From Prorocentrum cordatum (taxonomy: Eukaryota), in NCBI GenBank assembly GCA_963575745.1, contig CAUYUJ010000241.1, forward strand, positions 62,001 to 116,423: DNA of 54,423 bases. The letters run 5' to 3'. Both the position numbers and the translations under genes were made by a program. Below the pieces are notes generated by a model. It worked only from the letters and a program-made list of their open reading frames with translations, was not told the DNA's origin and did not search any database. Below are positions 182 through 54,180 of the stretch, piece by piece (the stretch's first letter is position 1; every line of letters begins with the position of its first letter).

Positions 182-203
182 TCCGTAGCCATTTTGGCTC
201 AAG
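182..203 (+). other. Genomic copy of the dinoflagellate spliced leader (DinoSL) at the 5' end of LINE-A
   Basis: TCCGTAGCCATTTTGGCTCAAG is an exact match to the DCCGTAGCCATTTTGGCTCAAG consensus and directly follows a (CCT)n tract. Confidence 0.97.
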
Positions 204-345
204 GTTGAAACCTGCCCTGGGGCTTCAGCCTTGTCGCAGGCGACAGGGAGGCCCGAACCTTCCGAGGCCAGGACGCCTCTCTCCTTCCTGCCGTGCGCCA
301 CAGCACGCTCCCTGTTTTGGCTACAACGACGCGCGCTGAGCCGCC

Positions 346-4900: not shown

Positions 4901-7708
4901 GCTATGGATCGCTCCCGCGTTTATCCAGCTTTCTGGAAATCCCCTGCGTTCGTCGAACACCTTGAGCTGGTCCATGTGAGGTCTCAGGAGCCCCTACTCG
5001 TCGCCGCTCGCTCTGCCATGCGTGAGGAAGCTCAGGTTACGACACGAAGGCCCAAGCTGCAGCGTGCGGCTGCCCGCTCGCTGGGTCAGAACATGTGTGC
5101 GCACAAACCTCTTCAGGCTATGCTGATTCGCCACTTAACCCCGTTGTTCACAGCTTACCTCCCCTTCCTCAACCTGATCCACTGGCCCGCTATTCAGGAG
5201 CTTCTGGCACTGGTTCCGCAAAGTTGGGCGATGGCTGCCTTACGGACTTGGGGGCATGGTTGGTTGACATCTCATAGGATTATCCACCCGAGGGGTAAAC
5301 TACGTTGTCGTTTCGGATGCCCTGGCCCTGATCGGCTGCAACATTATCTACGCTGCCCTAAATTATACCTGGCAGTCAGCAAAGGTCTACAGCGTGCCCT
5401 GCCTCGTCCCCTGGCTCAGCGTCTTGGCCTTACACACCCCCACCCTGACCACTTCGAAGCTCTCTATGTCTATTACCAGGTCTTCAACTATGCTCGGCAA
5501 GGTGCGCTAGTGTCGACTCCTCGTCAGTTGCGTGGCGATGTCGAGGCCGCTGTCCGCACCTCTCGTCTGGCCAGACCCTCAGCCAAGTTAAAACGGTGGG
5601 AACCTCCTCCTGCTGTCCAGACGATCCGCCGAAGGCAGCCTCAGAGGAATGTGCTCACCTCCTCGTCCACCTCCAGTTTGAGTTCTGACGCTGCGGCCCC
5701 CATCCCTAACCTGGTCCCACCCACTCCGTGTATCGACGATGTGAGACATAGCTCTGATGAAGTCGGCCAACCTGCTCCCCACCCAGAGCCGCCTGTGTCC
5801 CTGCCTGCTGGCGCTTTGGCTCAGTGCGAGGCCCTGCCCCCACGGCAGGGCGTCAACGTGCGGACGCCCGTTTCCGCCGCTACCTTGCCGCGACCTGCGG
5901 CATCCATGTTCGCGTGGCCGCTGGCCGCCACAGTGGTGCTCTCCGCGGTCCACGCAACGCCGATAGCTGTCCCAACCACTTGTGAGGCGGATGTTACGCG
6001 GCTTGAACGTGAATATCGTGCGACCATCAGTCGTGTCGAACGCCTTCGTGCTGGTGGGCTCCCTGTTCGAGAGGACCATGCTCTTCCTGAACAGTTGCGA
6101 TGTTTGGGCGATGCCACCACGTCGAAGTCGACGCCGTCACCTGGTTCTCCCTTCCTGTGCCTGGCGGGCCACCCACCTGCTTCCTCTGCGGAGCATGCAC
6201 CACCTGTTGTCTTCGGCGAACGTATTGCATCAAGGGCTACACGCTGGGTCTTGCGCCTGGATGACTCCGAGAGCGGCCGTGCCGACTGGTTGATGTGGTG
6301 CATCCTGTATGTGCGTGCAAAATTTGTTGCGAGGGAATGGGTGGATTCGTCTGGTTGGAGTGGTACGCTTGACGAGCTCGCTCGTCATATCTGCATGGTT
6401 GCCTGGGACACCTCTACCGAAGGGCGCCTCAATATCGTAGATTACTATCGGTGGCTGAATGACCCGAGTAACTCCTTGACGCGACACGGGCTCTGGGAAG
6501 AGATGGTGGATCGACATTTCCAGGCCCTTCGTGAGATCCGCAGAGAGATGAGGCAATACTTGGGACCCGCTGCGCCACACCGTGTTCGGGACTTCCTCGT
6601 GGACAGCAATGGAGACGAGGCCCTGCCCATCGCTGCTGCCAACGGGTCGGTGCACTATTTTGCCCCACTAGTCTCTGCAGTGGATCCTGATGATGGAGAT
6701 GCCGCCAACGGAGATGGAGACGTCGACCCTGCCTCTTTCCTCCTCCAGGTTTCGGTTGCAGGGTGCTCCTCGAGCCCTGCGGCCACTGGCGTTAGAACGC
6801 GGAGGTCGACCGCCTCTGTTGGAAATAACGGCTCTGGAGTAAGTTGCGAGCTTGCGTCTCGAGTTCGGAGGTCGACCGCCTCTGTTTTAAATAAGGGCTC
6901 TGGAGTAAGTTGCGAGCTTGTGTCTCGAGTTCGGAGGTCGACCGCCTCTGTTCTAAATAAGGGCTCTGGAGTAAGTTGCGAGGTCTCGTCTCATGTACGG
7001 TGGCCGACCGCCTCTGATGGAAATGAGGGCTCAGCCTTCGAGAGTTGCGCCGTCTTCGAGAGTTGCGCCGACGTCAAGTGTTGCGCGATCATGGTGAATT
7101 GCCCCGTCTTCGAGAGATGCGCCGTCATCGAGAGTGTCTCCGTCAACGAGAGTTGCGCCGTCTTCGAGGGTTGCACGCCATCATCGAGAGTTGCGCAGTC
7201 TCGGAGAGTTGCGCCGTCGTCACGAGTTTCGCCGACTTGGTCACGGATCGCTTCCCTCTTCGCTACTCTCCCGTGCTCGTCTTCCCCGACCTGGCCGAGT
7301 TCGACGGCTGCTGGCTCATCGATTGTCCCCTGTCCGACGTGGATGGCGGGACCCTCCTCCTCGATTTCGCCTCTGACGAGAATTTCGTCGTCAATGTCAT
7401 GCAGTGCTACTCCAACTTCTCCTATTGGCTTGAGTTCTGGTACAGGAGTTGGGGGCACCCTTAGATTGCCCCACATGTGTGAGTGCCGTCGGAAAAGGCC
7501 CCAGTCGCCCATTTTCCTTATCCGTTCTCTGCGCCTTGCCTCGATCCCCTCCTTCGTCCGCGCTCCCTCCTGCTCTCAGCATCCTCTGAATGTGAATGAT
7601 ATAAATTTGACGGCTATCCGCCGCGCATCGTGTCCTGCAGCTACGGCGGCCTCAGCTACAACAGCTTCGACAGGAGGCGTGCCCATGCTGCCTCAGGCGC
7701 CGTGCTAG
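377..7708 (+). CDS. LINE-A ORF2 polyprotein: AP endonuclease, reverse transcriptase, CCHC-like knuckle, long C-terminal extension (start uncertain: ATG 377 or 1976)
   Basis: APE motifs TWNAH, LQEVH, VLGDLN, IDRFF, SDHAAL. RT motifs SAPGVDG, QRGFIRGR, FDYGQAFPSL, GIIQGCGLSG, CADD, GLKIKISK, YLGM. Zn motif CRFGC-x8-H-x3-C. The frame is open from 293 to 7708. Confidence 0.92.
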   Translation: MLYIVSMVVRMLIRRLLPLVAVIPLRSPAALPLGAVAAEVPVVPLALGLPPTATLVPPLSPLAVLAVLAALVVLAGTSLCLLVLLPRIGAPTPRLWEHLGVLRLCPWTNGTTPSVHKWLQNSRWLLPSRRRRRGPTRMPPRRALLLGSSTPGPRRRGRALPRGLRLLLVVLLIVAKRRSMPPSLGPSTMPTYPRGSCSCAMSSTISSPRPSPILFSSLTLPSLPRSPHFRSSSPRSTHPLISRSWHRYVRSLIPCSASFRSSMMPYAVVSTTLSGTSRPRLPNWLSCRSRSRSYAARMSWIDNSRRVPLPLLVSTARSIRRRSLWSHPSSSVWLASVKWSTPSWASSTSPRTTRTRSKHSRRSPPKSLPCASLGRSGWLPDVCKRPSLTSSRTEHGGSFSAQLKVLTQPVFTLVLTSRRNKFVVRCSFVRSALPSWSLTVRESGLSIGSGVFLSLTTPTSCVLSPGQAMNPLSSLGTTWGSAPSAWAAVTPRMPFGTSPPRRRPPSGVFNAITDLFVLPVGQVGGEISASLTFMTWNAHALLQFGGAKASPKLSYLSKLQPGRSILALQEVHADRFELNDFVARLSSTAIVHGSFCEDDDGEVVRGSGGVAVILPPFSSSSVSSCAVPLIRGRVLRVDVALGQTQLVIFNVHNHGLTKGEVQSVCEQIDCALRRAADDPLSYFVVVLGDLNYSYDSSLIFHRPTGVQRQLTHDHKVHAPIWAATLGKMMEINSEAATHFCKFTNSINIIDRFFCSATGWMMCQLMTEVNTVDTPEHLCSMGISDHAALSIRLRLRGARPAAERPIPKHIFTSVEFQRRLRGMVADCNEDLLRWGPPVATEHYKYMMKEAAREARDILFFSAPDLPGTLQLVARGIARAVWRQDAALALRLIETSQHAADALVVDSQVVSLRHAPSFEQWAAGVHRLVLEKELAAAAADRAPSGSSSAWRPHSATLLGAMERKASIWAPFSKRLILSAVNTPEGPISEVRERTAALAAYWTPVFSKKEPHPVMTQMYLDRFLTKASGIDLHCPLTPVFRKVLRRARHSAPGVDGLPYAAWSACDYGAQHLARMFGWLCQGQSLFASASVTLQAFLPKGADDSDLPSGVCSRSPDKIRVLGLRNTDVKILSSVMNRVLEPVVQAVAPASQRGFIRGRNFCYNVLELDVHARLASQHPLAVRRSPVLVGFDYGQAFPSLSQSFLLQLLGSLGLPTEILAFVGWMYLAVEGVVQDGGCYTTIFWIRSGIIQGCGLSGSLYALASSPMLADLERSIEQRQLGICRACADDLGAVLYELASLRILVRVLGVMEKIAGLKIKISKCTLVPLVGCMTEALKTMTQTQLASIASGWSGFAVEGWLLYLGMILGPDATVDMNWRGPLMKARSRSRMLGRGVASVCTNCILYRTRVYPCLAYVAQFLPMPEWFLPIERGAIAQVLRAPLGLFSNESILELPAWGGPQIPSWAAHTTAAHLRAAFHTFQGFEEYLRLLRQTASLWHREVVEGKFDAIPLAAMDRSRVYPAFWKSPAFVEHLELVHVRSQEPLLVAARSAMREEAQVTTRRPKLQRAAARSLGQNMCAHKPLQAMLIRHLTPLFTAYLPFLNLIHWPAIQELLALVPQSWAMAALRTWGHGWLTSHRIIHPRGKLRCRFGCPGPDRLQHYLRCPKLYLAVSKGLQRALPRPLAQRLGLTHPHPDHFEALYVYYQVFNYARQGALVSTPRQLRGDVEAAVRTSRLARPSAKLKRWEPPPAVQTIRRRQPQRNVLTSSSTSSLSSDAAAPIPNLVPPTPCIDDVRHSSDEVGQPAPHPEPPVSLPAGALAQCEALPPRQGVNVRTPVSAATLPRPAASMFAWPLAATVVLSAVHATPIAVPTTCEADVTRLEREYRATISRVERLRAGGLPVREDHALPEQLRCLGDATTSKSTPSPGSPFLCLAGHPPASSAEHAPPVVFGERIASRATRWVLRLDDSESGRADWLMWCILYVRAKFVAREWVDSSGWSGTLDELARHICMVAWDTSTEGRLNIVDYYRWLNDPSNSLTRHGLWEEMVDRHFQALREIRREMRQYLGPAAPHRVRDFLVDSNGDEALPIAAANGSVHYFAPLVSAVDPDDGDAANGDGDVDPASFLLQVSVAGCSSSPAATGVRTRRSTASVGNNGSGVSCELASRVRRSTASVLNKGSGVSCELVSRVRRSTASVLNKGSGVSCEVSSHVRWPTASDGNEGSAFESCAVFESCADVKCCAIMVNCPVFERCAVIESVSVNESCAVFEGCTPSSRVAQSRRVAPSSRVSPTWSRIASLFATLPCSSSPTWPSSTAAGSSIVPCPTWMAGPSSSISPLTRISSSMSCSATPTSPIGLSSGTGVGGTLRLPHMCECRRKRPQSPIFLIRSLRLASIPSFVRAPSCSQHPLNVNDINLTAIRRASCPAATAASATTASTGGVPMLPQAPC
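6800..7031 (+). repeat. 66-bp in-frame tandem repeat (about 3.5 copies) in the LINE-A ORF2 tail
   Basis: CGGAGGTCGACCGCCTCTGTT...GGCTCTGGAGTAAGTTGCGAG starts at 6800, 6866, 6932 and (degenerate) 6998. Confidence 0.9.
7039..7235 (+). repeat. Degenerate 18-bp tandem repeat (CGAGAGTTGCGCCGTCTT)
   Basis: Repeated GAGAGTTGCGCCGTC units, translating as FESCAV-like repeats. Confidence 0.8.
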
Positions 7709-7919
7709 GCGCAGGGAGCTGACCTCTGGGTACGCTGGTCTCCTCCTCCTCCTCCTCCTCCTCCTCCTCCTCCTCCTCCTCCTCCTCCCGTTCCTCCCCC
7801 TCCTCCTCCTCCTCCTCCTCCTCCTCCTTCTCCTCGCCCCTCCTCCTCCTCTTCCTCCTCCTCCTCCTCCTCCTCCTCCTCGCCCCTCCTTCTCCTCCTC
7901 CTCCTCCCCCTCCTCCTCC

Positions 7920-7941
7920 TCCGAAGCCATTTTGGCTCAAG
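7920..7941 (+). other. DinoSL copy (1 mismatch)
   Basis: TCCGAAGCCATTTTGGCTCAAG, a T>A change at position 5, preceded by (CCT)n. Confidence 0.93.
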
Positions 7942-8482
7942 CGAGCCCGGCGGACGGGAGGCCCCCGCGGCGCGCGCCCGGGGCGGCGCTCGGGCGCGCA
8001 GGCGGCCATCATGGAACCGGAGGGTCGGCGCGCGCGGGCGGCCAGGTCGGCGCGGACCCTGGCCCGTCGCCTGCGGCGCCGGTGGCGTGCGGAGGCGGGG
8101 CCCACCCGGGCGGGGGCGCTGCGACGGCGCACAGGGCTGCTGCGCCGCTCGCTTGTGGCGCATTGGGCCCTTCGCGACAGGATCGGAGCGCGCATCCCTG
8201 CGATGGCTGGAGCTATACGTGCCTACGAGCCTTCTTGGCCTCGACGGTCAGCTGGATTACGCCTACGAGGACCTGCACCTTGGTGGCTGGGCACGTCACG
8301 CGCCTCCCCCTAAGGCTAGGTGAGCGGCCGCGCTGCCCCCGCTGGCAGTCCGCGCCCACGTCTTCGAGGACTTCAGGGGCAAGCTCTGCAGCGAGGGCTA
8401 CACTGGCGAGGCGGAGCAGAAGCCGCTGCGATGCCAGACGTCCAATGAGACGGCGACGGGCGAGCAGTACGAGGAGCTCTTC

Positions 8483-9364
8483 GTGGACCCGAAGCCTGAC
8501 GTCGAGAGGAATAAGAGGGAGGTCGAGATCGTGACGCGCCATGCGGGGACCGTCGAGCGGCCGAAGTCCGACTTCATGCTGCAATCGGTCGCCCAGAGCG
8601 CTGCCCAAGACTGTCAGAAGCTCGTGGAGAAGCCGTCGGCTGAGTCCGACGAGAAGTGCTTCCACATCAACCTGGAGACGAAGGAGTCCGTGGATTCCGC
8701 TGGGAGGAGCACCAACGTGGTTGGCGTCAGCGAGGTTGGCTTCGACGAGACGAAGCACACCGTCAACCAGGTGCTCGACGCGACGCTCTTCACGAAGAAG
8801 GGCGATTCCGCGGAGCTCGCCGCCGAGAAAGACGACAACGTGTCCGTCGATCCGCTCTCCACGAAGAAGTGCGACAGCGAGAAGCAGGTGCTAAAAGTCA
8901 GTGACGACGTGGGCGTCGGCGGCATAGCCAGCAGCGTGGTGCCGTACACCGTCGACCAGGTGATCGGTGAGGGGCTCGCCACGTGCAAGGGCGAGATTGG
9001 CAGCAGGATGCTGGATGACAGAATCGACGAGGTGGTGCAGGATGCGGAGCTGCGCGACGAGGACGTGTTGGTCCTGGACCAGCTCACCCCGAAGCAGCAG
9101 ATGGCGAACCTGGTGATCACCACGGAGAGGAAGTGCTGCGAGATCCTGAGGGCCATGCAGAGCGGTCGTTGCCCGATGTGCTTGGTCAACGAGCTCAGCC
9201 TGCAGAATTGTGGCCTAGTTTCGGGCGCGCAGCTGGACGAGGTCGACCTCTTCTGCGAGATGTGCGAGAACGGCATCGGATTCTCCCCGATGCTCTTGTG
9301 TGGGGGCTGTGGAGGCGCGCTCCACAAGGAGTGCTTCAACGAGCAACTCATCCCCACGGACTGA
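8483..9364 (+). CDS. Acidic protein with a C-terminal Cys/His zinc finger (PHD-like, incomplete); start uncertain
   Basis: 293-aa ORF with coding-like GC3 bias. C-terminus CPMC...CEMC-x11-CGGC-x4-H-x2-C. GTG start, so the true 5' part may be frameshifted. Confidence 0.55.
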   Translation: MDPKPDVERNKREVEIVTRHAGTVERPKSDFMLQSVAQSAAQDCQKLVEKPSAESDEKCFHINLETKESVDSAGRSTNVVGVSEVGFDETKHTVNQVLDATLFTKKGDSAELAAEKDDNVSVDPLSTKKCDSEKQVLKVSDDVGVGGIASSVVPYTVDQVIGEGLATCKGEIGSRMLDDRIDEVVQDAELRDEDVLVLDQLTPKQQMANLVITTERKCCEILRAMQSGRCPMCLVNELSLQNCGLVSGAQLDEVDLFCEMCENGIGFSPMLLCGGCGGALHKECFNEQLIPTD

Positions 9365-9549
9365 GCAGCAGGCGTATGGCGCTTGCAGTCGTAAAGGCCC
9401 CCCGGAGGGTCGTCGGATTATGTTTCCGTGTGCTGCTGGCGCGTTGTGGGGCGCAGCTTTCTTGAATGGCCGTTTGGGGGTCGTCGGATTTCGGCTCCGT
9501 GTTCGGTGCGGGGCAAGCTCTCAGACTTCCGCTGTCTTCAGCCTGATCG

Positions 9550-22240: not shown

Positions 22241-22382
22241 ACCGACACGTGTCGGGGTGAAACAGGGAGGAGTGACTTCTAAGGGAAAGGGGTAGAGGAG
22301 AAGGAGGCGGAGGAGCAGGAGGACAGGAGGAGGCATATGAGAAGGAGGAAAAGGAGGAGGAGGAGGACAGGAGGAGGCAACG

Positions 22383-22414
<32 letters not shown>

Positions 22415-22895
22415 GGAGGAGGAGGAGGAGGAAGGGAGGCACAGGAGAAGGACAGGAGGAGGCGCAGGACAGGCGAAGAGGCGAACCAAGGAGGAGGAGG
22501 AGGAGAGGAGGAGGAGAAGGAGGAAGTGGATAGATGTAGGAGGAGGACAGGAGGAGGCACAGGAGGAAGAGGAAGAGTACCAGGAGGATGAGGACAGGAG
22601 GAGGCAACGGAGGAGGAGTGGGAGGAGGGGTAGGAGGTGGGAGGGAGGAGGAGGAGGAGGCGGAGGAGGAGGAGGAGGGAGGAGTAGTAGGAGGAGGAGA
22701 GGAGGAGAGGAGAGAGGGGAGGAGGAGGAGGAGGAGGGGAGGGAGGGAGGGGAGGAGGGAGGGAGGGATGGAGGGAGCGGAGGGAGGAAGGGAGGGCGGG
22801 AGGGAGGAGGAGCAGAGAGGACCTCGTGGTAGATGGGGCGGGGAGCCCAGCAGGAGGAGGAGGAGAAGGATGGGGCCCTCCTGCGTGCCGCCGAG

Positions 22896-25949: not shown

Positions 25950-26357
25950 TTTCCTCCTGCTCCTACTCCCGCTCCTCCTCCTCCTCCTCCTTCTCCTCCC
26001 CCTCCTCCTCCTGCTCTCCTCCTCCTCCTCTCCCCTTTTCCACCTCCTCCATCCTGCTATTCATCCTCTTCTGTTTCTCCTCCTCATCATCATTTTTCTC
26101 CACCTCCTCCTCCTCCTCCTCCACCTCCTTCTCCTCCTCCTCCTCCTCCTCCTCCTCCTCATCCTCTCTCCCTTTCCTCCTCCTTCTCCTGCTCCTCCTC
26201 CTCCTCCGTCCCCTCCTCCGTCCCCACCTCCTCCACCGTCTGTTCCTCCTACTCCTCCTTCTCCTCCTCCTCGTTCCCCTCCTCCTCCTCCTCCTCCTCC
26301 TCCTCCTCCTCCTCCTCCTCCTCCTCAGCAGCATCATCAGCATCATCATCAGCATCG

Positions 26358-27578: not shown

Positions 27579-28024
27579 TATTACGAATTGTAACATGCAG
27601 CGCTGACGGCCGACCACGCGATCACAAGCACCGACCACCAACAACCAAGCACCGCCACACCGACTACTGGCGCCTTGCGCCAGCATCAACACCAAACCTA
27701 GCACAGACGACCAATTCAGACTCCACACAACGACGCGGCACGAACACACCACGACATCGACTACAAGCATTCCTCCCCCTCCTGCCCTCCCCTTTCGTTT
27801 CACATAACTTTTTCTGTCTCGCATGCATGTATTTCCATACACAATAGTATTTCAGAGGCCAAGGCCTCGTTCACCTGGTCTCCAGTAGGCCTGGACTGCT
27901 GTCCGCACCGGAGGTCATTCGTTCGTTCCTCCTTCCTCCTCCTCCTCCTCCTCCTCCTCCCCCTTGTCCTCCCCCTCCTCCTCCCCTTCCTCCTCCCCCT
28001 CCTCCTCCTGCTCCTCCTCCTCCC

Positions 28025-28061
28025 TCCGTAGCCATTTTGGCTCAAGCCATTTTGGCTCAAG
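28025..28061 (+). other. Full DinoSL (28025-28046) plus 15-nt relict SL (28047-28061)
   Basis: TCCGTAGCCATTTTGGCTCAAG followed by CCATTTTGGCTCAAG. Confidence 0.97.
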
Positions 28062-28065
28062 ACCC

Positions 28066-31000
28066 ATGCTTTGGCGGGCTGAGCCCGCTCTGGCAAAAAC
28101 GGATACCGCTAGTCCGCGGCAGCAACCAACCTGTACGGAGGTCCCTCGGTCGAGGGGTTCGCGAGCCTCCAACATCCCAATCCTTGCTCTCGCGCCATGG
28201 CTCCGGCTGGCCCTGGTGAGTGGGAGCGCCGCCCGTGGGTTCAGTCATCCCGGCCCCGTCGCTGGGGGGGCACCATACCTGAGGGCGGGGGTTCGGCAGC
28301 CAAGTGGGAAAAATGGGACAGCCAGCGAGCCAAGCACGAGGAGGAATGGAAGACGGTGGCAGGTCCCAAAGGTGAAATTCTATGCCACCACTGCGGATGC
28401 CGTAAGAACTCAAAAGGATCGATGTGCTGCAAGCATTGTGGCCAAAAGCTCGGTACTCGTCCCCAACCACTTGATGACTCTGGGGCCCCCATGGCGTCGG
28501 ACGAGTCGGGGAAGGGAGCGAGCAAGGGAAAGAAAGGGTACAAAGGCGGCAAGGGAGATCTGTTCGGTGGCAAGGGCCCAGGCAACCTCTCCACGGCACT
28601 CCCTCCTGGACCTGTTCCCGAGATTCCCCAGGCCAAGGCCCTCGAATTACAGCGTCTGGCTCGTGAGGCTGGGGACGCTGTGGGGGCCGCGCGCTATGGA
28701 GCCCTGGCGCAGAGGGCGGCGCCGCCCCCGAAGCAGTCGGGGAGGCAGAGGCTCATTGCCGCAGAGCAGAAGCAGGAGAAGCTCGAGAAACGCCTCAACA
28801 GTGAGTTCGAGAAGCTGGAGCGCTGGCGTCGGGCGACAGATGAGCTGGCAGTCACGGTTGGGGCCCTGGCCGAGGAGCTGCAGGCTGCCGACGACGAGGT
28901 GGCAGCCGCCCTGGTGGAGCTCCAGAGCCAGCACAGAGGGCCACCAGCGACGGAGTCCAGCGGCCTGCCGAGCATCAGCCTGCGCAAGCTCATCGACGGT
29001 GAGATGGAGCTGGCCAGCCGTATTTCTTGTGACGATTTCATTGATGTTGAGGCTGTCAAGGGCAGCCACGAGGTGTCTGAAGAGGACCTACGAGAGCTCG
29101 AGGATCGCAAGAACAACGTGGCTAAGCAGATGCAAGAGGTGCTGGGATCGGTATTTCGCCAAGCTCTGGAGAAGGCCAATTCCGCCCAGGACCAGCACAA
29201 GGAGCACCTCAAACGACTCCAAGCGAAGCGACGACGCACTGCTGACGGTTGCCCTGGGGAACAAGCAGCCGCCACAGGTGGGATCGAGTCTGGACCAGGG
29301 GCCTCGCCAAGCCCAGAGACCGCGACAGCGAGCTCACCTGCCGAGGCGCCGGCTGATGCAGTTGGCAAGCCTGCCCCACAGTTGGACATTCGCTCTCGTG
29401 TCTCTGCTGACGTTGGTGTGCAGGCAGCAAAACGGTCGGGGCTTTAGCCACAGCGTGAGCTCGACACAAGTGGGGGCGACGTGGTCGAGTTCGGCTACTC
29501 CCTGTTCCTGGTCATCTCTCGGTGCCGTTCCTGAGAAGGCGGCCGCTAGCGTCCTCTCTCCTGAGAGGAGCAGCCTGAGTGAACCCGCCTGCCTCACGGC
29601 AGGTGCGAGTCCCAGGCGGGCAGCGGCGCTGGAGGAGCGTGCACTGACGGCGAAGTCGATTGCCACGAGCGCATCGTCGAGGCCGTCTTCTTCGGTTGAG
29701 CTGTCATCGTCGGTGTCGGGTACTCCCTGCGCTGCGGTGTCGCCGTCGGCTCCAGTGTCGGCGACTCCCTGGGCTGCGGTGTCGCCGTCGACTTCGTGGG
29801 TGGCGTCTACCCGTTTTGTCGGATTGGAGACCAGGTGCGCCTCGAGCCTGGTCTCCTCAGAGTTAAATTGCGAGGAAGAGTGGCCACGGGCTTCGGCGAC
29901 ATGTCAGAGCGCCGAGAACGTGACAGCCAGTCAGAACGTAGCCGTCAAGCCCAACCAGAGCTTGGCGGCCCTCTCGTCCAAACCTTTTGTTGCACGCAGT
30001 GAGGAAATTTCAGTGTCAGAACGCGACAGCCAGGCGCTCCTCGAACCTGGCTGTCTCAGAGTAGATTGCGAGAGCCCGTCGTTGGAGTCTGGCGTTAGAT
30101 CGCTAAATCCTGGGGGCAACCGATGCTCGGAGGAAGTGCCCAGCCAGGTTCAGTCGCCACTTGCTGAGTCTCGAGCCATGGGAGTCAGTGTTGAGCAACC
30201 TCAGGTGGAGTCTCAAGCAGCGCTGCAGCCGAAGCAGGTCATCTCATTGTTGGAAGGGCTCCCTCCTGAGGATCGCGGTGCCCTAGGTACGTTCAAAGTT
30301 GGCACTCTGAATGCGAATACTTGGCCAAGGGCTCGGAGCACCATGCCATGGATTGAGAAACAATGTCAGATGCCGCATGTGTTATGCATTCAGGAGACCG
30401 TGCTGGACCAGTCGGGGGAAGCAGGGGCCCATCAATGGACTCGCACTTGCTCTCGGAAGCTGGCGCTGGGAACTGCCAAGCGCACAGGAGAATCGGCCAG
30501 ATCTCTTTCAGCAGGAGTGGGTTTGTCAGCGGCCATTGGCATTGGGGTGGCCAAGCTCCAGGTTCCTGAGAGGTGGCAGCACCGTGTTGTGATGAGGCTC
30601 ATGACGGTTGGCGCTCACTCGTGGATCATCATCGGCTCAGTCTACGGCGTCGACTCGATCGGCCCCAAGGGCGAGAACCTGGAGCTGCTGGAGTTCCTCA
30701 GTGCCTTCCTGGGGGCGCAGCGTTTCCCTTTCCTGCTAGGAGGTGACTGGAACCTAGAACCTGAGGAGATCATGGAGCTAGGATGGCTGGACCTGGCAAC
30801 CGCCACCATCTTCGCACCTGGCCTCCCAACCTGCAATGGCAAGGAGTATGACTACTTCATTGGCTCCCAGGCTCTGGACGCCTTCCCCATGTCGGTGGAG
30901 GCCAGGGTGGACACGCCGATCTCGCCACACTGCTACGTCGAGATCAAGCTGGAGGGCCTCAGGGACGAGCCCTTTGTCTGGGTCGAGGCGCCCCCACGAG

Positions 31001-34000
31001 CCTTTCCTCTGGCCGACCAGGAGGCCAAGAGGAAAGCCAGGGAGAAGGCAAAGAGTGCCAAGGTGACCGATCTCACCTCGACCACGGAACCGCCTATGGT
31101 ACCTGTGCTTGACGAGTGGCAACTGGACGCCCCCGTGAACTCAGTCGAGGATGCGGCAGCGATGTGGTTCAAGGCGGCTGAGAAGTACCTGGTGCAGTTG
31201 TTCGAGATTCCGTTCTCGGACAGGAGGCTCTACGTTGGCAGGGAGAAGGGCGTGGTACTCAAGAAGAAGAGGCTGGTGGACTGTGCGAAGGCTATCCTAG
31301 AGCGCCACGACGAGTCGGACACCAGAGCTTGGCTGAGTGCCCTCAGGCTATGGGATGCCCTATGTGTGGCATCGTCAGCTCCGTCTGGTTCGAAAGCAGG
31401 CAGGCCAGAGCACTCCGCGAGGTGCGAGAGACAGCTGCTGGCCCTGAAGCTCCCTGAGGCCATCTCGGATTCCCCCTCCCTGCAGGCGAAGGATGTCCAG
31501 AAGTGGGTCGCCTTGGCCAAGAGAGGAGGTCAGTTGTCTGCCTGGTTTCGAACTGTTCTAGCGGAGGAGGTGGATGTGCGCAGACGCAAGGACTCACAGG
31601 CCAGGAGTAAGGCCTGGAGAGAGTTCGGCGACCTCGCAGCTGATGGCTCTGGCAGGCTAGCGCACGCGATTTCCAGGCCCAAGCTGTTGGAGGAGGCGCC
31701 CACGCTGGCCAAAGGCAAGCCCCATGGTCTGGTGGGAGCTGCTGCGATCACGGCGGTGCTGGAGGAATGGGAAGAGCTGTGGACCTCTGACGACAGGGCC
31801 CAGGAGGCAGCGCCGTCTGACTGGAGTTACCCGTGGAAGCTCGACCAGATCTCGGAGGACCAGATCGTCCAGGTCTGCCGCTCCTTTGGCTTTTCCACTG
31901 GTCTAGGCTGGGACAACTTTCACATGAGGTTGGTAAGCTTCCTGGATGGAGTGTTTGTTCGGAGGCTCCAAGAGATTATTTCAAGTTGGGAGCGCAATCC
32001 GCACTGTGAACGCATGTGGGTCACGATCAATGTATTTCTGCCTAAACCAGGAGGAGGTACACGCCCGATCGGGCTCCTTTGCTTCTGGGCGCGCATTTGG
32101 AGCAGATGCAGGAGGCAGTATGTCAAAGGTTGGGAGGCGTCGGTTGATGCGAAGTTTTTCTGGGGAAAGGATGCCACGACCAGTTGTGACAAAGCGGCGT
32201 ACGTACACAATATGCTTGCCTGCTACGCCAGAAGGAAGAGGCTGTCGGCCATAACTGTGTTCTATGACATCCGCAAGTTCTACGAGAATGTCAGTCATCA
32301 GCAGCTAAGAGAAGCAGCAGAGCACTACAGTTTCGACGGCGCCTTGCTGAAGGCGCTCTGCTGTCTGTATCGAGCGCCACGCCGTGCGCGCTGGACAGGA
32401 GGCACGAGCAGAGTCAGTTATCCGAATGGAACTATCGTGGCTGGCTGCAGTGCGGCAACGGGAGTGGCGAAACTGATGACCTTGTGCCTCCTCAAGCGCC
32501 TGGCTGAGGAGACGCCTCCGTGTCGTGCGTTGAATGTGGTGGACGATTTGACGACGCATACCATCGGAGGCCCAAGGACGGTTGTTGAGAACACGGTCAA
32601 GAGTTTCGAGATTGTCACCTCGGAGCTGGGCTCGAGGAAGTTGCCAATTAATTGGGACAAGACTAGATTCATGATGTCCGATCACTCCCAGCTGCCTGCG
32701 TTGGTACAGGATCCCAGGTGGAGGCTATCGGACGACAAGCTGGTCATCGCCCACCGCGACCTCGGCGGCGACTCGCTGGACGGCAGGGCGAGGCGAGTCG
32801 GCACGCAGGCGTCGAGAATTGAGGCCGCCCGCAGCACTGCAGTTGCCCTACGACAGCTGGGGCAGAGTGAAAAGCATAGTAGAGTTTATCGTGTGGGCGC
32901 GCTGGCTAAAGCTTCTTGGGGATCCCACATCTTGGGGATCCCGCCGACCACCCTCCATAAGCTTAGGGTCCAAGCTGCGAGATCCTGGGGCCCTCTTCTT
33001 CCTGGCACTTCCCTGGGCTTCAGGTTTCTTTCGGCCGCTCGCCTCTGGCTCAGGGACCCGCTTTTGGTGACGGTGACGTCGGCTGTAAAGGAATTCGTCA
33101 GCGTTTGGTGGGCCCGCTCGATTTCTAAACCAGTGTTGGAAGCTTGTGTCCAGGACGCCCTGGCGGTCCAGGGGAGTAGGGCCCCCTGGGGCCAAGTCCG
33201 CCAGCCTGTTGCTGCGCTTTTCCTGCAGCTTGCTCGGATCCGCTGGAGTTTCGATGTGTCTCGATTAGCCCTGGTTGACGACCTCAACCGTGTGTGGTCA
33301 ATTGATCGGTTTTCGCCCAAGTTTTTCACCCTTCTCCTGCGAGGCTCGGTCGTTCGGGCCATTGAGCGGGAGGAGCAGTTGAAACAATTTGATTTCGGGA
33401 TGTGGAGCGGCCCAGTGTTCTGGCAGCCCATTCATCAGCTTCTAGGGCGGAAATGTTCGGAGTCGTGGACGAAGTCGCACAAGGCAGCTCTTTCAGCTCT
33501 GTGTGCGAATGTGTACTGGTGCCAGCACAGAGTGTGCGAGCATAGTCCAGAGGCCCCTGACCAATGCCAGCTGTGCAGAGATGGTAGAGGCACGTTGTAC
33601 CATCGCAGGTTTCAGTGCGTTGCCTTCGCTCCCTGGCGGCGCGAGAACCTGGATCCCGTGGTTGCTAAGGCGGCTCGTGCGGTTGGCCATCTCCCCACTC
33701 CTGCTGGGGAACTTTTTAGCAGATGTCTTTTCCCCAACCCTGCGGCCTGGGTGGAGCGACCCCCCCGCGACCCGCAGGACCCGTGCACCAGGCACTTTCA
33801 GTGGCCTCAGGACGGCCCCTTGTTTATTCCTGAGGGGGCTCATGTGTTCACGGACGGGTCGGGCTTTGAAGGGGAGCTCACAGGACTCGGGACCGCGGGT
33901 TGGGCTGTTGTGGTGCTGGACAGGCAGGGTAGGACCCTCGCCGCCCTTTTTGGTGTCGTGCCGATCGGGGAAGCGCCTGGGCAACAGGCACGCGACGGCG

Positions 34001-35127
34001 AGGATTTCGCTGTGCTGATGCTCTCCCGCCGTTCGGTCCTCTCCTCAGGTGTCTCGCTTCATGTGGACTGTGCGGCCACGGTCGGTTGCCTTCGAAACCT
34101 CGCGGGGGCAGCTGGTGCGTCGTCGGCCCGAGCCCACTGGTGGGCTGAGATTGGGGACCGTTTGGAGGGCTTGGCAGTGCATCAGATCCCGTCTCACTCG
34201 TCGATGGTTGATGTTAGGGAAGGCCGTATCACTGAAATGCAGCGTTTCGGGAACTCGGAGGCGGACAGACTCGCCAAGGAAGGAGCTGAGCCATTCCGAA
34301 TTTCGATTGAGGACCGCCAATTTGTGACTGGATATGCAGAGCTTGTCCGACGTGTCGGGCTGTACAGTGCCAGGCAGCAGGCTGAGTGTAGGGATTTGGC
34401 CCTGAACGATCATCAAGGGTTGGAATGGCTCGGCTACGTCCTCCTGGATGCGGTCCCTGGCTTCCCCCTTCCTGGTTCGGACCCTGGGGGTGGTGAGCCA
34501 AGTGCGCCTAGCGGTGTGCCTCAGGTTGCGCCTGGTGCGGGGGAAGCCCCTGGCGAGGCCCCTGGCGCGGTATCCGGTGAGCCGCCTCCCGAGAACCCCC
34601 CGACCCCAGGAGCATGGCTCCAGCTGGGGCACTCCCTTGAGCAGGGGGTGGTATATGAGTCGGATGGCTGCACGTATCACGATACGATGCTGTGTTGCAC
34701 GGCTTGTGGTGCAATGGCACATTCCAGCACGAAACGGGGGAATCTTCGGTTGAGGTGTCGTCCGGTCGCGTCTGGGGGACGGGGGTTTTACCTCGACCGA
34801 TTTCGTGCTGGAAGATATCCTGCCCATAGGAATCCTAAAGGGCTCACTATGGCGTACACGGGTGCCCCCTCTCTTGAGGTTCGCTCGGAGTGGAGGCCCT
34901 TCTTTGAGGCCTGGTCCCAGGGCCGCGACCGCCCTCCGAGAATAGCTCGGGGTGCCCAGCCCTCGCGCCGCGAGGGTCCCGCTGCCGACCGTGCGCGAGG
35001 CCTCGCCATGCTCGGCCTGACGCGGGCGGAGGTCGTGGAGCTGGGGGCCGAGGTCGAGGCCAGGCGCTGGAGAGGCGTTCTTCCCGAGGAGGAGGAGGAT
35101 CTCTTCGGCTGCCTAGGCCCCTCCTAA
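28066..35127 (+). CDS. LINE-B ORF2 polyprotein: APE, RT, CCHC, RNase H, C-terminal Cys/His domain (start uncertain)
   Basis: APE TLNANTW, IQET, SVYG, GGDWN, YDYF, SPH. RT LPKPGGGTRPIGL, YDIRKFYE, IVAGCS, VVDD. CQLC-x8-H-x4-C. RNase H FTDGS, DGE, VDC, PSH, GNSEADRLAK. Tail GHSL...CTACG...C. Confidence 0.92.
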   Translation: MLWRAEPALAKTDTASPRQQPTCTEVPRSRGSRASNIPILALAPWLRLALVSGSAARGFSHPGPVAGGAPYLRAGVRQPSGKNGTASEPSTRRNGRRWQVPKVKFYATTADAVRTQKDRCAASIVAKSSVLVPNHLMTLGPPWRRTSRGRERARERKGTKAAREICSVARAQATSPRHSLLDLFPRFPRPRPSNYSVWLVRLGTLWGPRAMEPWRRGRRRPRSSRGGRGSLPQSRSRRSSRNASTVSSRSWSAGVGRQMSWQSRLGPWPRSCRLPTTRWQPPWWSSRASTEGHQRRSPAACRASACASSSTVRWSWPAVFLVTISLMLRLSRAATRCLKRTYESSRIARTTWLSRCKRCWDRYFAKLWRRPIPPRTSTRSTSNDSKRSDDALLTVALGNKQPPQVGSSLDQGPRQAQRPRQRAHLPRRRLMQLASLPHSWTFALVSLLTLVCRQQNGRGFSHSVSSTQVGATWSSSATPCSWSSLGAVPEKAAASVLSPERSSLSEPACLTAGASPRRAAALEERALTAKSIATSASSRPSSSVELSSSVSGTPCAAVSPSAPVSATPWAAVSPSTSWVASTRFVGLETRCASSLVSSELNCEEEWPRASATCQSAENVTASQNVAVKPNQSLAALSSKPFVARSEEISVSERDSQALLEPGCLRVDCESPSLESGVRSLNPGGNRCSEEVPSQVQSPLAESRAMGVSVEQPQVESQAALQPKQVISLLEGLPPEDRGALGTFKVGTLNANTWPRARSTMPWIEKQCQMPHVLCIQETVLDQSGEAGAHQWTRTCSRKLALGTAKRTGESARSLSAGVGLSAAIGIGVAKLQVPERWQHRVVMRLMTVGAHSWIIIGSVYGVDSIGPKGENLELLEFLSAFLGAQRFPFLLGGDWNLEPEEIMELGWLDLATATIFAPGLPTCNGKEYDYFIGSQALDAFPMSVEARVDTPISPHCYVEIKLEGLRDEPFVWVEAPPRAFPLADQEAKRKAREKAKSAKVTDLTSTTEPPMVPVLDEWQLDAPVNSVEDAAAMWFKAAEKYLVQLFEIPFSDRRLYVGREKGVVLKKKRLVDCAKAILERHDESDTRAWLSALRLWDALCVASSAPSGSKAGRPEHSARCERQLLALKLPEAISDSPSLQAKDVQKWVALAKRGGQLSAWFRTVLAEEVDVRRRKDSQARSKAWREFGDLAADGSGRLAHAISRPKLLEEAPTLAKGKPHGLVGAAAITAVLEEWEELWTSDDRAQEAAPSDWSYPWKLDQISEDQIVQVCRSFGFSTGLGWDNFHMRLVSFLDGVFVRRLQEIISSWERNPHCERMWVTINVFLPKPGGGTRPIGLLCFWARIWSRCRRQYVKGWEASVDAKFFWGKDATTSCDKAAYVHNMLACYARRKRLSAITVFYDIRKFYENVSHQQLREAAEHYSFDGALLKALCCLYRAPRRARWTGGTSRVSYPNGTIVAGCSAATGVAKLMTLCLLKRLAEETPPCRALNVVDDLTTHTIGGPRTVVENTVKSFEIVTSELGSRKLPINWDKTRFMMSDHSQLPALVQDPRWRLSDDKLVIAHRDLGGDSLDGRARRVGTQASRIEAARSTAVALRQLGQSEKHSRVYRVGALAKASWGSHILGIPPTTLHKLRVQAARSWGPLLPGTSLGFRFLSAARLWLRDPLLVTVTSAVKEFVSVWWARSISKPVLEACVQDALAVQGSRAPWGQVRQPVAALFLQLARIRWSFDVSRLALVDDLNRVWSIDRFSPKFFTLLLRGSVVRAIEREEQLKQFDFGMWSGPVFWQPIHQLLGRKCSESWTKSHKAALSALCANVYWCQHRVCEHSPEAPDQCQLCRDGRGTLYHRRFQCVAFAPWRRENLDPVVAKAARAVGHLPTPAGELFSRCLFPNPAAWVERPPRDPQDPCTRHFQWPQDGPLFIPEGAHVFTDGSGFEGELTGLGTAGWAVVVLDRQGRTLAALFGVVPIGEAPGQQARDGEDFAVLMLSRRSVLSSGVSLHVDCAATVGCLRNLAGAAGASSARAHWWAEIGDRLEGLAVHQIPSHSSMVDVREGRITEMQRFGNSEADRLAKEGAEPFRISIEDRQFVTGYAELVRRVGLYSARQQAECRDLALNDHQGLEWLGYVLLDAVPGFPLPGSDPGGGEPSAPSGVPQVAPGAGEAPGEAPGAVSGEPPPENPPTPGAWLQLGHSLEQGVVYESDGCTYHDTMLCCTACGAMAHSSTKRGNLRLRCRPVASGGRGFYLDRFRAGRYPAHRNPKGLTMAYTGAPSLEVRSEWRPFFEAWSQGRDRPPRIARGAQPSRREGPAADRARGLAMLGLTRAEVVELGAEVEARRWRGVLPEEEEDLFGCLGPS
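28197..29447 (+). CDS. LINE-B ORF1 (C4 zinc finger and coiled coil), 416 aa
   Basis: ATG in GCGCCATGG context. CHHCG-x9-CCKHCG zinc finger, GK-rich segment, long coiled-coil-like region. Confidence 0.85.
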   Translation: MAPAGPGEWERRPWVQSSRPRRWGGTIPEGGGSAAKWEKWDSQRAKHEEEWKTVAGPKGEILCHHCGCRKNSKGSMCCKHCGQKLGTRPQPLDDSGAPMASDESGKGASKGKKGYKGGKGDLFGGKGPGNLSTALPPGPVPEIPQAKALELQRLAREAGDAVGAARYGALAQRAAPPPKQSGRQRLIAAEQKQEKLEKRLNSEFEKLERWRRATDELAVTVGALAEELQAADDEVAAALVELQSQHRGPPATESSGLPSISLRKLIDGEMELASRISCDDFIDVEAVKGSHEVSEEDLRELEDRKNNVAKQMQEVLGSVFRQALEKANSAQDQHKEHLKRLQAKRRRTADGCPGEQAAATGGIESGPGASPSPETATASSPAEAPADAVGKPAPQLDIRSRVSADVGVQAAKRSGL

Positions 35128-35699
35128 CTTGTTTGTTTTTTGTTGCATGCGAATTGGGTCACTCCCTTCGTGGTCGCGGGCGTCCTCCTCCTCCCGGTCT
35201 TTCTCCTCCTCCTCCCTCCCTTCCTCCTCCCCCTCCTCCTCCGCCTCCTCCTCCTGGTCTTTCTCCTCCGTCCTCCTCCTCGTTGTCCTCCTCATCCTTG
35301 TCCTCATCATCTCCCTGAAGATTGGCTGCGCTGCTAGGGTCGATCCTCATCATCTCTCCTCCTTCTTCTTCTCCTCCTCCTCCTCCACAACTACACAATA
35401 TGAATACTGCTCTCCTCTCCTCCTCCTTCTCCTCCTTCTCCTTCTCCTCTCCTCCTCCTCCTCCTCCTCTCGTCCTCCTCTCCTCTCCTCTCCTCTTTCT
35501 CCTCTTTCTCCTCCTCCTCCTCCTCTTCCTCCTTCTCCTCTTTCTCCTCCTCCTCCTCCTCCTCCTCCTCCACAATTACACAATCTGAATACTACTCTCC
35601 TCTCTCCCCGGATGACGTCCTGGAAGATCTTCGGCTCCCCTCCGCGTGCTTAACAAAACATAAAAAAGGACTCCCGAGAGTTGGGTTTTAGCTTGGGCT

Positions 35700-54038: not shown

Positions 54039-54109
<71 letters not shown>

Positions 54110-54148
54110 ACTACTACTACTACTACTACGACTACTATACTACTACAG

Positions 54149-54180
<32 letters not shown>

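What the first reader, a model, noticed from the sequence alone, without database searches (positions are those of the whole stretch)
28025..28061. SL plus 15-nt relict SL on an intact LINE records at least two rounds of trans-splicing and reintegration
Seen: TCCGTAGCCATTTTGGCTCAAG followed by CCATTTTGGCTCAAG. The second copy begins right after the internal AG of the SL (TCCGTAG|CC). This is what results when a genomic SL copy is transcribed with upstream sequence and its internal AG is used as the trans-splice acceptor. Known for dinoflagellate retrogenes; here it sits on an autonomous element with both copies unmutated. Inference: the parent copy was transcribed from upstream of its own 5' end, and the insertion is recent.
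Basis: partly seen in the sequence, partly recalled or inferred. Interest (0 to 1): 0.85.

Follow-up and report, generated by a model that had tools for sequence, protein, structure and literature searches.

The report
Spliced-leader-capped LINE with relict leader
A full-length jumping gene (LINE) in a dinoflagellate genome starts with the cell's 22-base mRNA leader plus a 15-base leftover of an earlier leader, which suggests its RNA was leader-capped and copied back into DNA at least twice; this mark is well known on ordinary genes and is seen here on a self-copying element.

Summary
[quoted passage not shown] 28047-28061 is a perfect 15-nt relict that starts after the leader's internal AG.

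The pair heads a 7.16-kb non-LTR retrotransposon with open ORFs and a significant RT domain. AP-endonuclease, RT and RNase-H-type motifs are all present.

The reading (at least two rounds of trans-splicing and reverse transcription in this element's lineage) is the standard, published explanation for relict leaders. Three checks support it:
- 9 of 10 strong relicts at 75 other genomic SL sites share the same register.
- Some family members in public runs appear to carry one SL only.
- The window holds no SL RNA gene.

Recency and upstream transcription remain inference. No RNA data were available.

Two added findings:
- A second, unrelated full-length LINE and a non-LINE unit in the window are also SL-headed.
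- All three sit directly behind a (TCC)n tract and end in one, without poly(A).

SL-headed copies in other dinoflagellate contigs are likewise enriched behind microsatellites.

Verdict: a real feature and a new member of a known kind. It gives a lead on LINEs as the engine of dinoflagellate mRNA recycling.

The parts
27927..28024 (+). (TCC)n-type polypyrimidine microsatellite directly abutting the SL; the SL's own first bases TCC continue the repeat
   Evidence: TRF row 27927-28023, period 3. 39 of the 40 bases upstream of 28025 are pyrimidines, against 3.06% of window positions reaching 38 of 40.
28025..28046 (+). [quoted passage not shown]
   Evidence: It matches the DinoSL printed in PMC7245778 and PMC5585692.
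28047..28061 (+). 15-nt relict SL (positions 8-22 of the leader), left from the previous round
   Evidence: 15 of 15 identical to the leader's 3' part.
28062..28196 (+). LINE-B 5' UTR. The first ATG (28066) opens the long ORF2 frame only 5 nt behind the relict.
28197..29447 (+). ORF1 (416 aa), with a Cys-rich CHHC...CCKHC stretch and a coiled-coil-like middle; no Pfam family
   Evidence: GC by codon position is 0.70/0.52/0.67.
28066..35127 (+). ORF2 frame, open for 2353 codons from the ATG at 28066. The conserved part starts near 30300. AP-endonuclease motifs: GTLNANTW 30301, CIQET 30385, GGDWN 30739. RT: 32041-32676, VVDD at 32536. RNase-H-like FTDGSG at 33847. C-terminal Cys motif at 34693.
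   Evidence: Pfam RVT_1, E 1.4e-11. BLASTP to P0003 gives 26% identity over 853 aa (E 2e-48) plus an APE stretch (E 1e-9). Three of the 5 homologues carry PF00078 plus PF03372. Invariant Q/E, D, DD and D.S columns are in alignment A1.
35128..35182 (+). Short 3' UTR (55 nt) with no poly(A)
35183..35571 (+). (TCC)n/(CTC)n tracts at the 3' end (35183-35298 and 35412-35571): a tail or the other half of a microsatellite target
182..7739 (+). LINE-A, a second full-length LINE from an unrelated family. It starts with one exact SL (182-203, no relict), is preceded by (TCC)n at 105-184 and followed by (CTC)n at 7740-7922.
   Evidence: Pfam RVT_1, E 6.2e-13, and Exo_endo_phos, E 2.1e-5. No BLASTP similarity to LINE-B (best E 2.9).
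7920..9549 (+). Third SL-headed unit (SL with 1 mismatch, no relict). It carries a 262-aa ORF (8576-9364) with no RT. It is preceded by (CTC)n and followed by (CTC)n at 9550-9981, with no poly(A).

Best explanation
LINE-B is an autonomous APE/RT non-LTR retrotransposon of a GC-rich (60%) dinoflagellate, and its mRNA is matured like a host mRNA.

Inferred history:
1. An ancestor copy was transcribed and its RNA received the 22-nt DinoSL by trans-splicing.
2. The element's reverse transcriptase copied that RNA to its very 5' end, so the daughter copy carried a genomic SL.
3. That daughter was transcribed from a start upstream of its own 5' end, that is, from within or beyond the upstream (TCC)n tract.
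4. The first AG behind the tract, which is the AG at positions 6-7 of the genomic SL, served as trans-splice acceptor. A new full SL was joined to the remaining 15 nt (CCATTTTGGCTCAAG).
5. This RNA was again reverse-transcribed and inserted, giving the copy seen here.

Shown: the sequence anatomy, the LINE identity and open frames, the register of relicts elsewhere, and the absence of an SL gene.

Inferred: trans-splicing of LINE RNA, use of the internal AG, upstream transcription, and recency.

The SL therefore marks the true 5' end of the retrotransposition template. The relict count gives a minimum number of SL-to-DNA cycles in the lineage.
For: The SL (22 of 22) plus relict (15 of 15) sits exactly at the 5' end of the element, followed by a 135-nt UTR and ORFs.

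LINE identity:
- Pfam RVT_1, E 1.4e-11.
- Homologues carry RT plus Exo_endo_phos.
- Catalytic motifs are conserved.
- No internal or terminal long repeats, and no second copy in the window.

Generality within the window: 2 of 2 full-length LINEs, from families with no BLASTP similarity, and 1 non-LINE unit start with an SL. So the SL is added independently of element family.

Register: of 75 retrocopy-type SL sites in metagenome contigs, 10 have a relict matching at 12 or more of 15 bases. Nine of those start at once behind the SL in the CC... register and 1 starts 2 nt later. Several show perfect relicts followed by decayed ones (L173, L203, L233), as the sequential model predicts (PMC3229502 passages).

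Family variation:
- In run X1, 4 contigs fit from 28045 on and are preceded by ...CCTCCTCCGT, which reads as one SL behind a TCC repeat.
- In run X5, one contig fits from 28067 and is preceded by TCC plus one SL with a mismatch.
- The family is multi-copy at graded identity: 622 contigs were laid in X1, split 197/148/206/71 at 99% or more, 95-99%, 90-95% and under 90%.

Not an SL gene: no Rfam hit in the window, and no match to the start of the SL-gene intron.

Published model: relicts are truncated after nucleotide 7 at the AG acceptor (PMC3229502; PMC7245778). Multiple SLs require transcription from upstream of the recycled SL (PMC5585692). The acceptor in dinoflagellates is an AG with some flexibility (PMC2488372).
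Against: - There is no direct RNA evidence. No listed run holding the stretch is on record as RNA.
- The duplication boundary is ambiguous by the shared AG, so this locus alone cannot exclude a 15-nt slippage duplication.
- There is no poly(A) tail and no recognisable target-site duplication, so the insertion boundaries and age are not defined.
- The extent of the single-SL contigs was not printed. That they continue into LINE-B is inferred from the fact that they were laid at all.
- Pfam did not detect the endonuclease domain in LINE-B itself, and a search of solved structures with that segment gave nothing. The APE assignment rests on motifs and on homologues at about 25% identity.
- If every cycle added a relict, an active LINE lineage should carry many. 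Only 0 (LINE-A) or 1 (LINE-B) is seen, so most cycles must use a downstream AG or another start.
Confidence: 0.8

Rival explanations
1. One round only. A copy with a single genomic SL later gained a 15-nt tandem duplication by replication slippage between the two AG dinucleotides (or by unequal exchange). On this reading the relict records no second trans-splicing.
For: The repeat is a perfect 2.1-copy tandem bounded by a 2-nt microhomology. The surrounding genome is extremely rich in tandem repeats (97 TRF rows in 54 kb), so slippage is common here.
Against: The same 15-nt unit in the same register recurs at unrelated loci of other dinoflagellates (9 of 10 strong relicts) and in transcripts of many species. 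Slippage would give varied unit lengths. A 2-nt microhomology is a weak substrate. Relict series decay from 5' to 3', as expected for sequential addition.
Confidence: 0.07
2. The double motif arose once, long ago, and is now simply part of the family's inherited 5' end. Daughters regenerate the same SL plus relict because trans-splicing uses the AG at the end of the first SL, or because transcription starts at the SL. The motif would then say nothing about this copy's own history or age.
For: Three AGs (28030-31, 28045-46, 28060-61) are available as acceptors, and acceptor choice is flexible in dinoflagellates (PMC2488372 passages). Song et al. propose that the SL's TTT(T/G) can act as a promoter. 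Active LINE lineages here show only 0-1 relicts. In X1, 22 contigs match through the SL and relict and then diverge behind 28061, so SL plus one relict is a common configuration.
Against: Contigs that read as LINE-B-like 5' ends with one SL only exist in two runs, so the motif is not fixed in the family. This rival still needs the two original rounds, so it changes the dating and not the mechanism.
Confidence: 0.25
3. A 5' chimera made by template switching. The reverse transcriptase reached the end of a 5'-shortened LINE RNA (starting at CCAUUUU...) and jumped onto an SL RNA or another SL-capped mRNA, as L1 does with U6 snRNA (recalled).
For: LINE reverse transcriptases are known to switch templates at 5' ends (recalled; PMC13174262 was seen only in a search listing). 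SL-bearing RNAs are the most abundant 5' ends in the cell.
Against: A jump onto SL RNA should bring intron sequence. The SL genes in the sample continue GTACAAGTTGGGCTG..., and no such sequence is present. The lower copy would have to be cut exactly behind the AG by chance, yet the same cut recurs at 9 of 10 other loci.
Confidence: 0.04
4. A site-specific LINE inserted into an SL RNA gene or SL array, like the SL-gene-specific elements of trypanosomatids and nematodes (SLACS, CZAR, CRE, NeSL-1; names recalled). The SL pieces would then be target DNA and not part of the element's RNA.
For: SL sequence lies at the element's border, and SL genes occur in arrays in dinoflagellates (PMC8045281 passages).
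Against: There is no SL-intron sequence or Rfam hit anywhere in the window. Upstream of the SL is a (TCC)n tract, whereas 0 of 30 SL genes in the sample have a simple repeat upstream. The rest of an SL gene does not follow the element's 3' end. Two unrelated LINEs and a non-LINE unit show the same arrangement. The element carries AP-type rather than restriction-like endonuclease motifs.
Confidence: 0.02

Closest known systems
Relict-DinoSL retrogenes ('mRNA recycling'; Slamovits & Keeling 2008, as described in PMC3229502, PMC5585692 and PMC7245778; passages read)
   Same: A full genomic or transcript SL is followed at once by a leader copy truncated behind the internal AG. The reading is the same: repeated trans-splicing, reverse transcription and reintegration. 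The inference that a multi-SL copy needs transcription from upstream is also the same.
   Different: The carrier here is an autonomous LINE that encodes the machinery, not a cellular gene. There is no poly(A), and (TCC)n tracts lie on both sides. The papers read do not describe SL-headed LINEs as such. Song et al. only note that RT-related GO terms are enriched among SL-tagged genes.
SymbioLINE elements of Symbiodiniaceae (de Mendoza et al. 2018, PMC5890265; passages read)
   Same: Dinoflagellate LINEs with Exo_endo_phos, RVT_1 and RNase H, an ORF1 plus ORF2 layout, and no poly(A) tail.
   Different: That paper reports conserved 5'/3' UTRs and target-site duplications. 'Spliced leader' occurs 0 times in its text. 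LINE-B has no DNMT ORF1. Sequence relatedness to SymbioLINEs was not tested here.
Trypanosomatid L1Tc/ingi LINEs with the Pr77 internal promoter (PMC1874656 and PMC8190864; abstracts seen in search listing)
   Same: LINEs living in a genome where all mRNAs receive a spliced leader.
   Different: Those elements make unspliced transcripts from an internal promoter and do not carry the SL in DNA. LINE-A and LINE-B carry it, which implies the opposite strategy: host-type trans-splicing defines the 5' end.
Microsatellite-targeting non-LTR retrotransposons (target-specific integration into microsatellites is mentioned in the abstract of PMC4640811; individual family names recalled only)
   Same: The element is bracketed by the same simple repeat on both sides and ends in that repeat instead of poly(A).
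   Different: Those lineages mostly encode restriction-like endonucleases. Here two unrelated APE-type LINEs and a non-LINE retrocopy share the (TCC)n context. In other dinoflagellate contigs the repeat unit differs from locus to locus: (CA)n, (ATC)n, (TA)n, (GGGT)n.

Membership tests
Relict-SL retrocopy (dinoflagellate mRNA recycling) | Complete DinoSL encoded in genomic DNA at the 5' end of the unit | tested here: met
   28025-28046 is an exact 22-mer.
Relict-SL retrocopy (dinoflagellate mRNA recycling) | Relict directly downstream, truncated behind the internal AG (starts at leader position 8) | tested here: met
   28047-28061 = CCATTTTGGCTCAAG. The boundary is ambiguous by the shared AG. 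The same register is seen in 9 of 10 strong relicts elsewhere.
Relict-SL retrocopy (dinoflagellate mRNA recycling) | Transcripts of the copy carry a newly trans-spliced SL | not testable with these tools
   No listed holder of the stretch is on record as RNA.
Relict-SL retrocopy (dinoflagellate mRNA recycling) | 3' mark of a processed mRNA (poly(A) remnant) | tested here: not met
   The 3' UTR runs straight into (TCC)n with no A-run. The same holds for LINE-A and unit 2.
Non-LTR (LINE) retrotransposon, APE type | Reverse transcriptase domain with the catalytic xxDD box | tested here: met
   Pfam RVT_1, 45 bits against a cut-off of 29.6. VVDD at 32536, with DD invariant in alignment A1.
Non-LTR (LINE) retrotransposon, APE type | AP-like endonuclease domain upstream of the RT | tested here: inconclusive
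   No Pfam hit in LINE-B itself and no hit among solved structures. However, the QET and GDWN motifs align with homologues, 3 of 5 of which carry PF03372.
Non-LTR (LINE) retrotransposon, APE type | No long terminal repeats | tested here: met
   blastn of the element against the window gave no off-diagonal hit.
Non-LTR (LINE) retrotransposon, APE type | Target-site duplication flanking the insertion | tested here: inconclusive
   Both flanks are (TCC)n-type repeats, so no unique duplicated site can be read.
SL-gene-specific LINEs (SLACS/CZAR/CRE/NeSL type; names recalled) | Insertion inside an SL RNA gene, with the rest of the gene on the other flank | tested here: not met
   No SL-intron sequence and no Rfam family in the window. 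The 3' flank is (TCC)n.

The most novel reading that the evidence does not exclude
Dinoflagellate LINEs have given up an internal promoter. They are expressed by read-through and defined at the 5' end by host SL trans-splicing. The SL copied into each full-length daughter, placed behind a microsatellite, acts as a portable, self-renewing acceptor, and the relict number works as a generation counter. The same microsatellite-linked, poly(A)-independent reverse-transcription machinery makes the SL-headed retrogenes. That would name LINEs, rather than the Ty1/copia elements favoured in the literature, as the engine of dinoflagellate mRNA recycling. It might also explain why each dinoflagellate genome is flooded with one kind of simple repeat.
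Probability: 0.25. Interest if true: 0.75.

Novelty: new member of a known kind. Interest (0 to 1): 0.45.

Why it matters
Relict leaders are the accepted footprint of mRNA recycling in dinoflagellates, but the papers read say that the agent of reverse transcription is unknown (PMC5585692, PMC6050394, PMC12014239).

This window shows two unrelated, apparently intact LINEs whose retrotransposition templates were themselves SL-capped. Next to them lies a non-LINE SL-headed copy with the same flanks: a (TCC)n tract on both sides and no poly(A).

That is circumstantial evidence that LINE machinery handles SL-capped RNAs and may make the retrogenes. It also turns a question into a countable test: relict number against LINE phylogeny.

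The junction between microsatellite and SL is enriched about 11-fold in other dinoflagellate contigs. It is a concrete, checkable clue to how the 5' end is joined or where insertions go.

Tried and rejected
- No earlier notes of this scan were found by place, words or sequence.
- LINE-B has no second copy in the window by blastn or tblastn.
- Searching for relatives of the first 200 aa of ORF1 in metagenome contigs gave 273 pattern matches, none confirmed.
- Alignment A1 found no confirmed relative in viral contigs among 152 pattern matches.
- tblastn of both LINE proteins against all 245 fetched loci found nothing.
- Protein search found only 5 distant homologues at 21-26% identity. The organism's own proteins are not in that collection.
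- No RNA holder is listed for the stretch, so expression and trans-splicing could not be examined. This says nothing either way.
- Logan contigs are short, so an empty site or a contig spanning the microsatellites could not be expected. No laid piece spans the whole element.
- Pfam on 19 other window ORFs gave no family except one weak hit below the curated cut-off. Pfam on the ORFs of L185 and L189 gave nothing.
- The idea that (TCC)n serves as the polypyrimidine tract of the acceptor fits this window but does not generalise. Elsewhere the repeats in front of the SL include (CA)n, (TA)n, (ATC)n and (GGGT)n.
- Literature searches for SL-headed LINEs, or for a microsatellite-SL junction, found no paper describing either. 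Supplements were not read, and subscription journals (including Slamovits & Keeling 2008 itself) are outside the library.

Full report
**1. Observation**

One search shows, on the + strand, a pyrimidine microsatellite followed by three adjoining pieces:
- TCCGTAGCCATTTTGGCTCAAG at 28025-28046;
- CCATTTTGGCTCAAG at 28047-28061;
- ACCCATGC... after that.

The first piece equals the published dinoflagellate spliced leader, DCCGTAGCCATTTTGGCTCAAG (passages of PMC7245778 and PMC5585692). The second piece is its last 15 nt, that is, everything behind the internal AG.

Chance is excluded:
- The 21-nt core has 4 matches at up to 3 mismatches, against 0.00 expected.
- The 15-mer has 4 exact matches, against 0.09 expected at up to 2 mismatches.

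Tandem Repeats Finder lists 28030-28061 as 2.1 perfect copies of a 15-nt unit. This also shows that the boundary is ambiguous by the shared AG.

**2. What carries it**

The frame open from 28066 to 35127 (2353 codons from the first ATG) contains the following:
- A significant RVT_1 domain (E 1.4e-11, residues 1360-1571 of P0001 = 32041-32676).
- Endonuclease-type motifs GTLNANTW, CIQET and GGDWN.
- The RT box VVDD.
- An RNase-H-like FTDGSG (coordinates).

Pfam did not call the endonuclease in LINE-B itself. A search of solved structures with that segment found nothing.

The five database homologues are 2074-2760 aa long and 21-26% identical to LINE-B. Three of them carry PF00078 plus PF03372. 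BLASTP to P0003 aligns 853 residues (E 2e-48) plus an endonuclease stretch (E 1e-9). The Q/E, D, DD and D.S columns are invariant in alignment A1.

A 416-aa ORF1 (28197-29447) precedes the conserved part. There are no terminal repeats and no second copy in the window. The 3' UTR is 55 nt and runs into (TCC)n with no poly(A).

So the carrier is a full-length, apparently intact non-LTR retrotransposon of 7158 nt.

**3. The surroundings change the picture**

The window holds two more SL copies, both on the + strand.
- 182-203 heads another full-length LINE (LINE-A). It has RVT_1 at E 6.2e-13 and Exo_endo_phos at E 2.1e-5. It shows no BLASTP similarity to LINE-B (best E 2.9).
- 7920-7941 (one mismatch) heads a 1.6-kb unit with a 262-aa ORF and no RT.

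All three SLs lie directly behind (TCC)n/(CTC)n tracts. In each case 39 of the 40 upstream bases are pyrimidines, whereas only 3329 of 108766 strand-aware window positions (3.06%) reach 38 of 40. All three units also end in such a tract without poly(A). The SL's first bases, TCC, continue the repeat.

The tail tract of LINE-A is at the same time the tract in front of the next SL. No SL RNA gene is present: there is no Rfam hit and no match to the start of the SL-gene intron.

**4. Independent sample of genomic SL copies**

These gave 133 distinct SL sites.

A rule-based sorting gave three classes:
- 31 SL genes, where the SL is followed by GTA...GCCTTTT;
- 25 AT-rich virus-type sites;
- 77 'retrocopy-type' sites.

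The sorting is approximate, and a few atypical SL genes probably remain in the last class.

Of the 75 retrocopy-type sites with enough downstream sequence, 10 have a relict matching at 12 or more of 15 bases. Nine of these start at once in the CC... register and one starts 2 nt later; the other 65 have none. Series such as perfect-perfect-decayed (L173) or perfect-decayed (L203, L233) occur. It argues against random slippage.

Of the 72 retrocopy-type sites with 20 nt of upstream sequence, 10 lie directly behind a simple repeat: (CA)n, (TG)n, (TA)n, (ATC)n, (CT)n, (GGGT)n or (CACCA)n. The comparison figures are:
- 403 of 32098 control positions (1.26%) in the same loci;
- 0 of 30 SL genes;
- 0 of 25 virus-type sites.

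Fifteen such loci were inspected. Only two of them have 3 kb or more of downstream sequence (L185, L189). In both, the same (CA)n unit reappears 3.2-3.4 kb downstream as the only simple repeat there. Their ORFs have no Pfam family. The other 13 have too little downstream sequence (19-1926 nt) and showed none.

So a microsatellite bracket around SL-headed retrocopies is not peculiar to this window, although it is far from universal in the sample.

**5. Family members elsewhere**

Fifteen public runs were listed and 11 hold part of the stretch. None is on record as RNA. Four runs were laid on 28000-35170.
- The family is multi-copy with graded divergence. In X1, 622 contigs were laid, split 197/148/206/71 at 99% or more, 95-99%, 90-95% and under 90%.
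- In X1, 22 contigs match through the SL and relict and then diverge behind 28061. So SL plus one relict precedes many other sequences in that organism.
- Four X1 contigs and one X5 contig fit only from 28045 and are preceded by ...CCTCCTCCGT.
- One X5 contig fits from 28067 and is preceded by TCC plus one SL with a mismatch.

I read these last contigs as LINE-B-like 5' ends with a single SL behind a TCC repeat. Their extent was not printed, so this is probable and not shown. If it holds, the double motif is not a fixed family feature.

**6. Mechanism**

The best reading is the published recycling cycle, applied to an autonomous element:
1. The LINE RNA receives the SL.
2. The RT copies the RNA to the capped end.
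3. The daughter is transcribed from upstream.
4. The first AG behind the upstream tract (leader positions 6-7) accepts a new SL.
5. Reintegration gives SL plus relict.

Song et al. state that only transcription from upstream of a recycled SL can give a multi-SL copy. They also report that 'RNA-dependent DNA replication' genes are enriched among SL-tagged genes. RT-coding units with SL relicts have therefore been seen implicitly.

The three AGs available in the present copy would give 2, 1 or 0 relicts in the next round. Acceptor choice is flexible in dinoflagellates (PMC2488372). The relict count is therefore only a minimum, and the two rounds may lie far back in the lineage.

Recency rests only on 37 perfect leader bases and on the open frames.

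**7. Rivals**

- Slippage duplication is possible at this single locus but is disfavoured by the recurrent register.
- A motif inherited since an old event changes the dating, not the mechanism.
- Template switching onto SL RNA should bring intron sequence, and none is present.
- Insertion into an SL gene is rejected: there are no gene remnants, the 5' context is wrong and the endonuclease type differs.

**8. Known or new**

Relict leaders are well known. None of the papers found describes LINEs that start with the SL, or a microsatellite in front of genomic SL copies.
- The SymbioLINE paper does not contain the words 'spliced leader'.
- Reviews call the agent of retroposition unknown and lean towards Ty1/copia.
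- Trypanosomatid LINEs, by contrast, use an internal promoter and make unspliced RNA (abstracts).

I file the finding as a new member of a known kind. The (TCC)n/SL architecture, shared by two LINE families and a neighbouring retrocopy, is the part worth following.

**9. Limits**

- There is no genome, no RNA, no empty site and no dating.
- Contigs are short, and their tables are truncated.
- The sorting of metagenome sites is heuristic.
- Supplements and paywalled papers were not seen.

Noticed in passing
IMG/VR loci L001-L119 (for example L011, L024, L051, L106; contigs named GVMAG-M-3300023179-82, -3300023174-52, -43 and GVMAG-S-3300013131-116), and AT-rich metagenome loci such as L121, L137 and L180: The exact DinoSL occurs at 134 distinct sites in contigs labelled as giant-virus MAGs. 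The surrounding DNA is AT-rich. Each SL lies directly behind a conserved AT-rich motif (TTGATAAATCAATTTTTTATTTTT...TTTTA or TTGAAA...TAGTA) and in front of many different genes on both strands. It looks as if giant viruses of dinoflagellates encode the host leader at the 5' ends of their own genes, behind a promoter-like box. Some sites show tandem SLs with a 29-nt spacer (L024, L064). No paper describing this turned up among the top hits of one search..
   Followed up: partly
window 28066-29447 (LINE-B) and 346-1905 (LINE-A): In both unrelated LINEs the long ORF2 frame is stop-free across the whole of ORF1, in the +1 frame relative to ORF1. Codon-order shuffles of ORF1 give on average 8.1 and 6.5 stops in that frame, and 0 of 2000 shuffles give none. 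In LINE-B the first ATG behind the leader (28066) opens the ORF2 frame, and the ORF1 ATG follows at 28197. In LINE-A the order is reversed (346, then 377). This suggests a fully overlapping two-frame arrangement, perhaps read by leaky scanning on a monocistronic SL-capped mRNA. Which frame is translated in the overlap is not settled.
   Followed up: partly
L185 and L189 (metagenome contigs); also L124, L138, L173, L178, L203, L215, L231, L233 and L235: SL-headed retrocopies in other dinoflagellate contigs sit directly behind microsatellites of varied unit: (CA)n, (TG)n, (TA)n, (ATC)n, (CT)n, (GGGT)n, (CACCA)n. This holds for 10 of 72 sites, against 1.26% of control positions. In L185 and L189 the same (CA)n unit recurs 3.2-3.4 kb downstream, bracketing bodies that hold ORFs of 508 and 784 aa with no Pfam family.
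   Followed up: partly
window 182-7739 and 7920-9549: A second full-length LINE (APE plus RT, unrelated to LINE-B) and a non-LINE unit both begin with a spliced leader and no relict. They lie head to tail, separated only by a 183-nt (CTC)n tract.
   Followed up: yes
whole window; for example 9550-9981, 22295-22758, 25952-26326, 37726-38007, 42665-43068, 54039-54423: The window is saturated with trinucleotide arrays, mostly TCC/GGA type on either strand, plus TCA, ATC, CGT and CTA: 97 TRF rows in 54 kb. Besides the two LINEs and unit 2, 18 other ORFs of 250 aa or more gave no Pfam family except one weak hit below the curated cut-off.
   Followed up: no
window 21949-22162 and 49092-49351: Two arrays of an 83-nt tandem repeat have related consensus units containing ...GAGAGCCACATTT[T/G]GAAAACC[A/G]CCCGCCCTCC.... 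They lie 27 kb apart. A 53-nt tandem repeat (35714-35899) lies just downstream of LINE-B.
   Followed up: no
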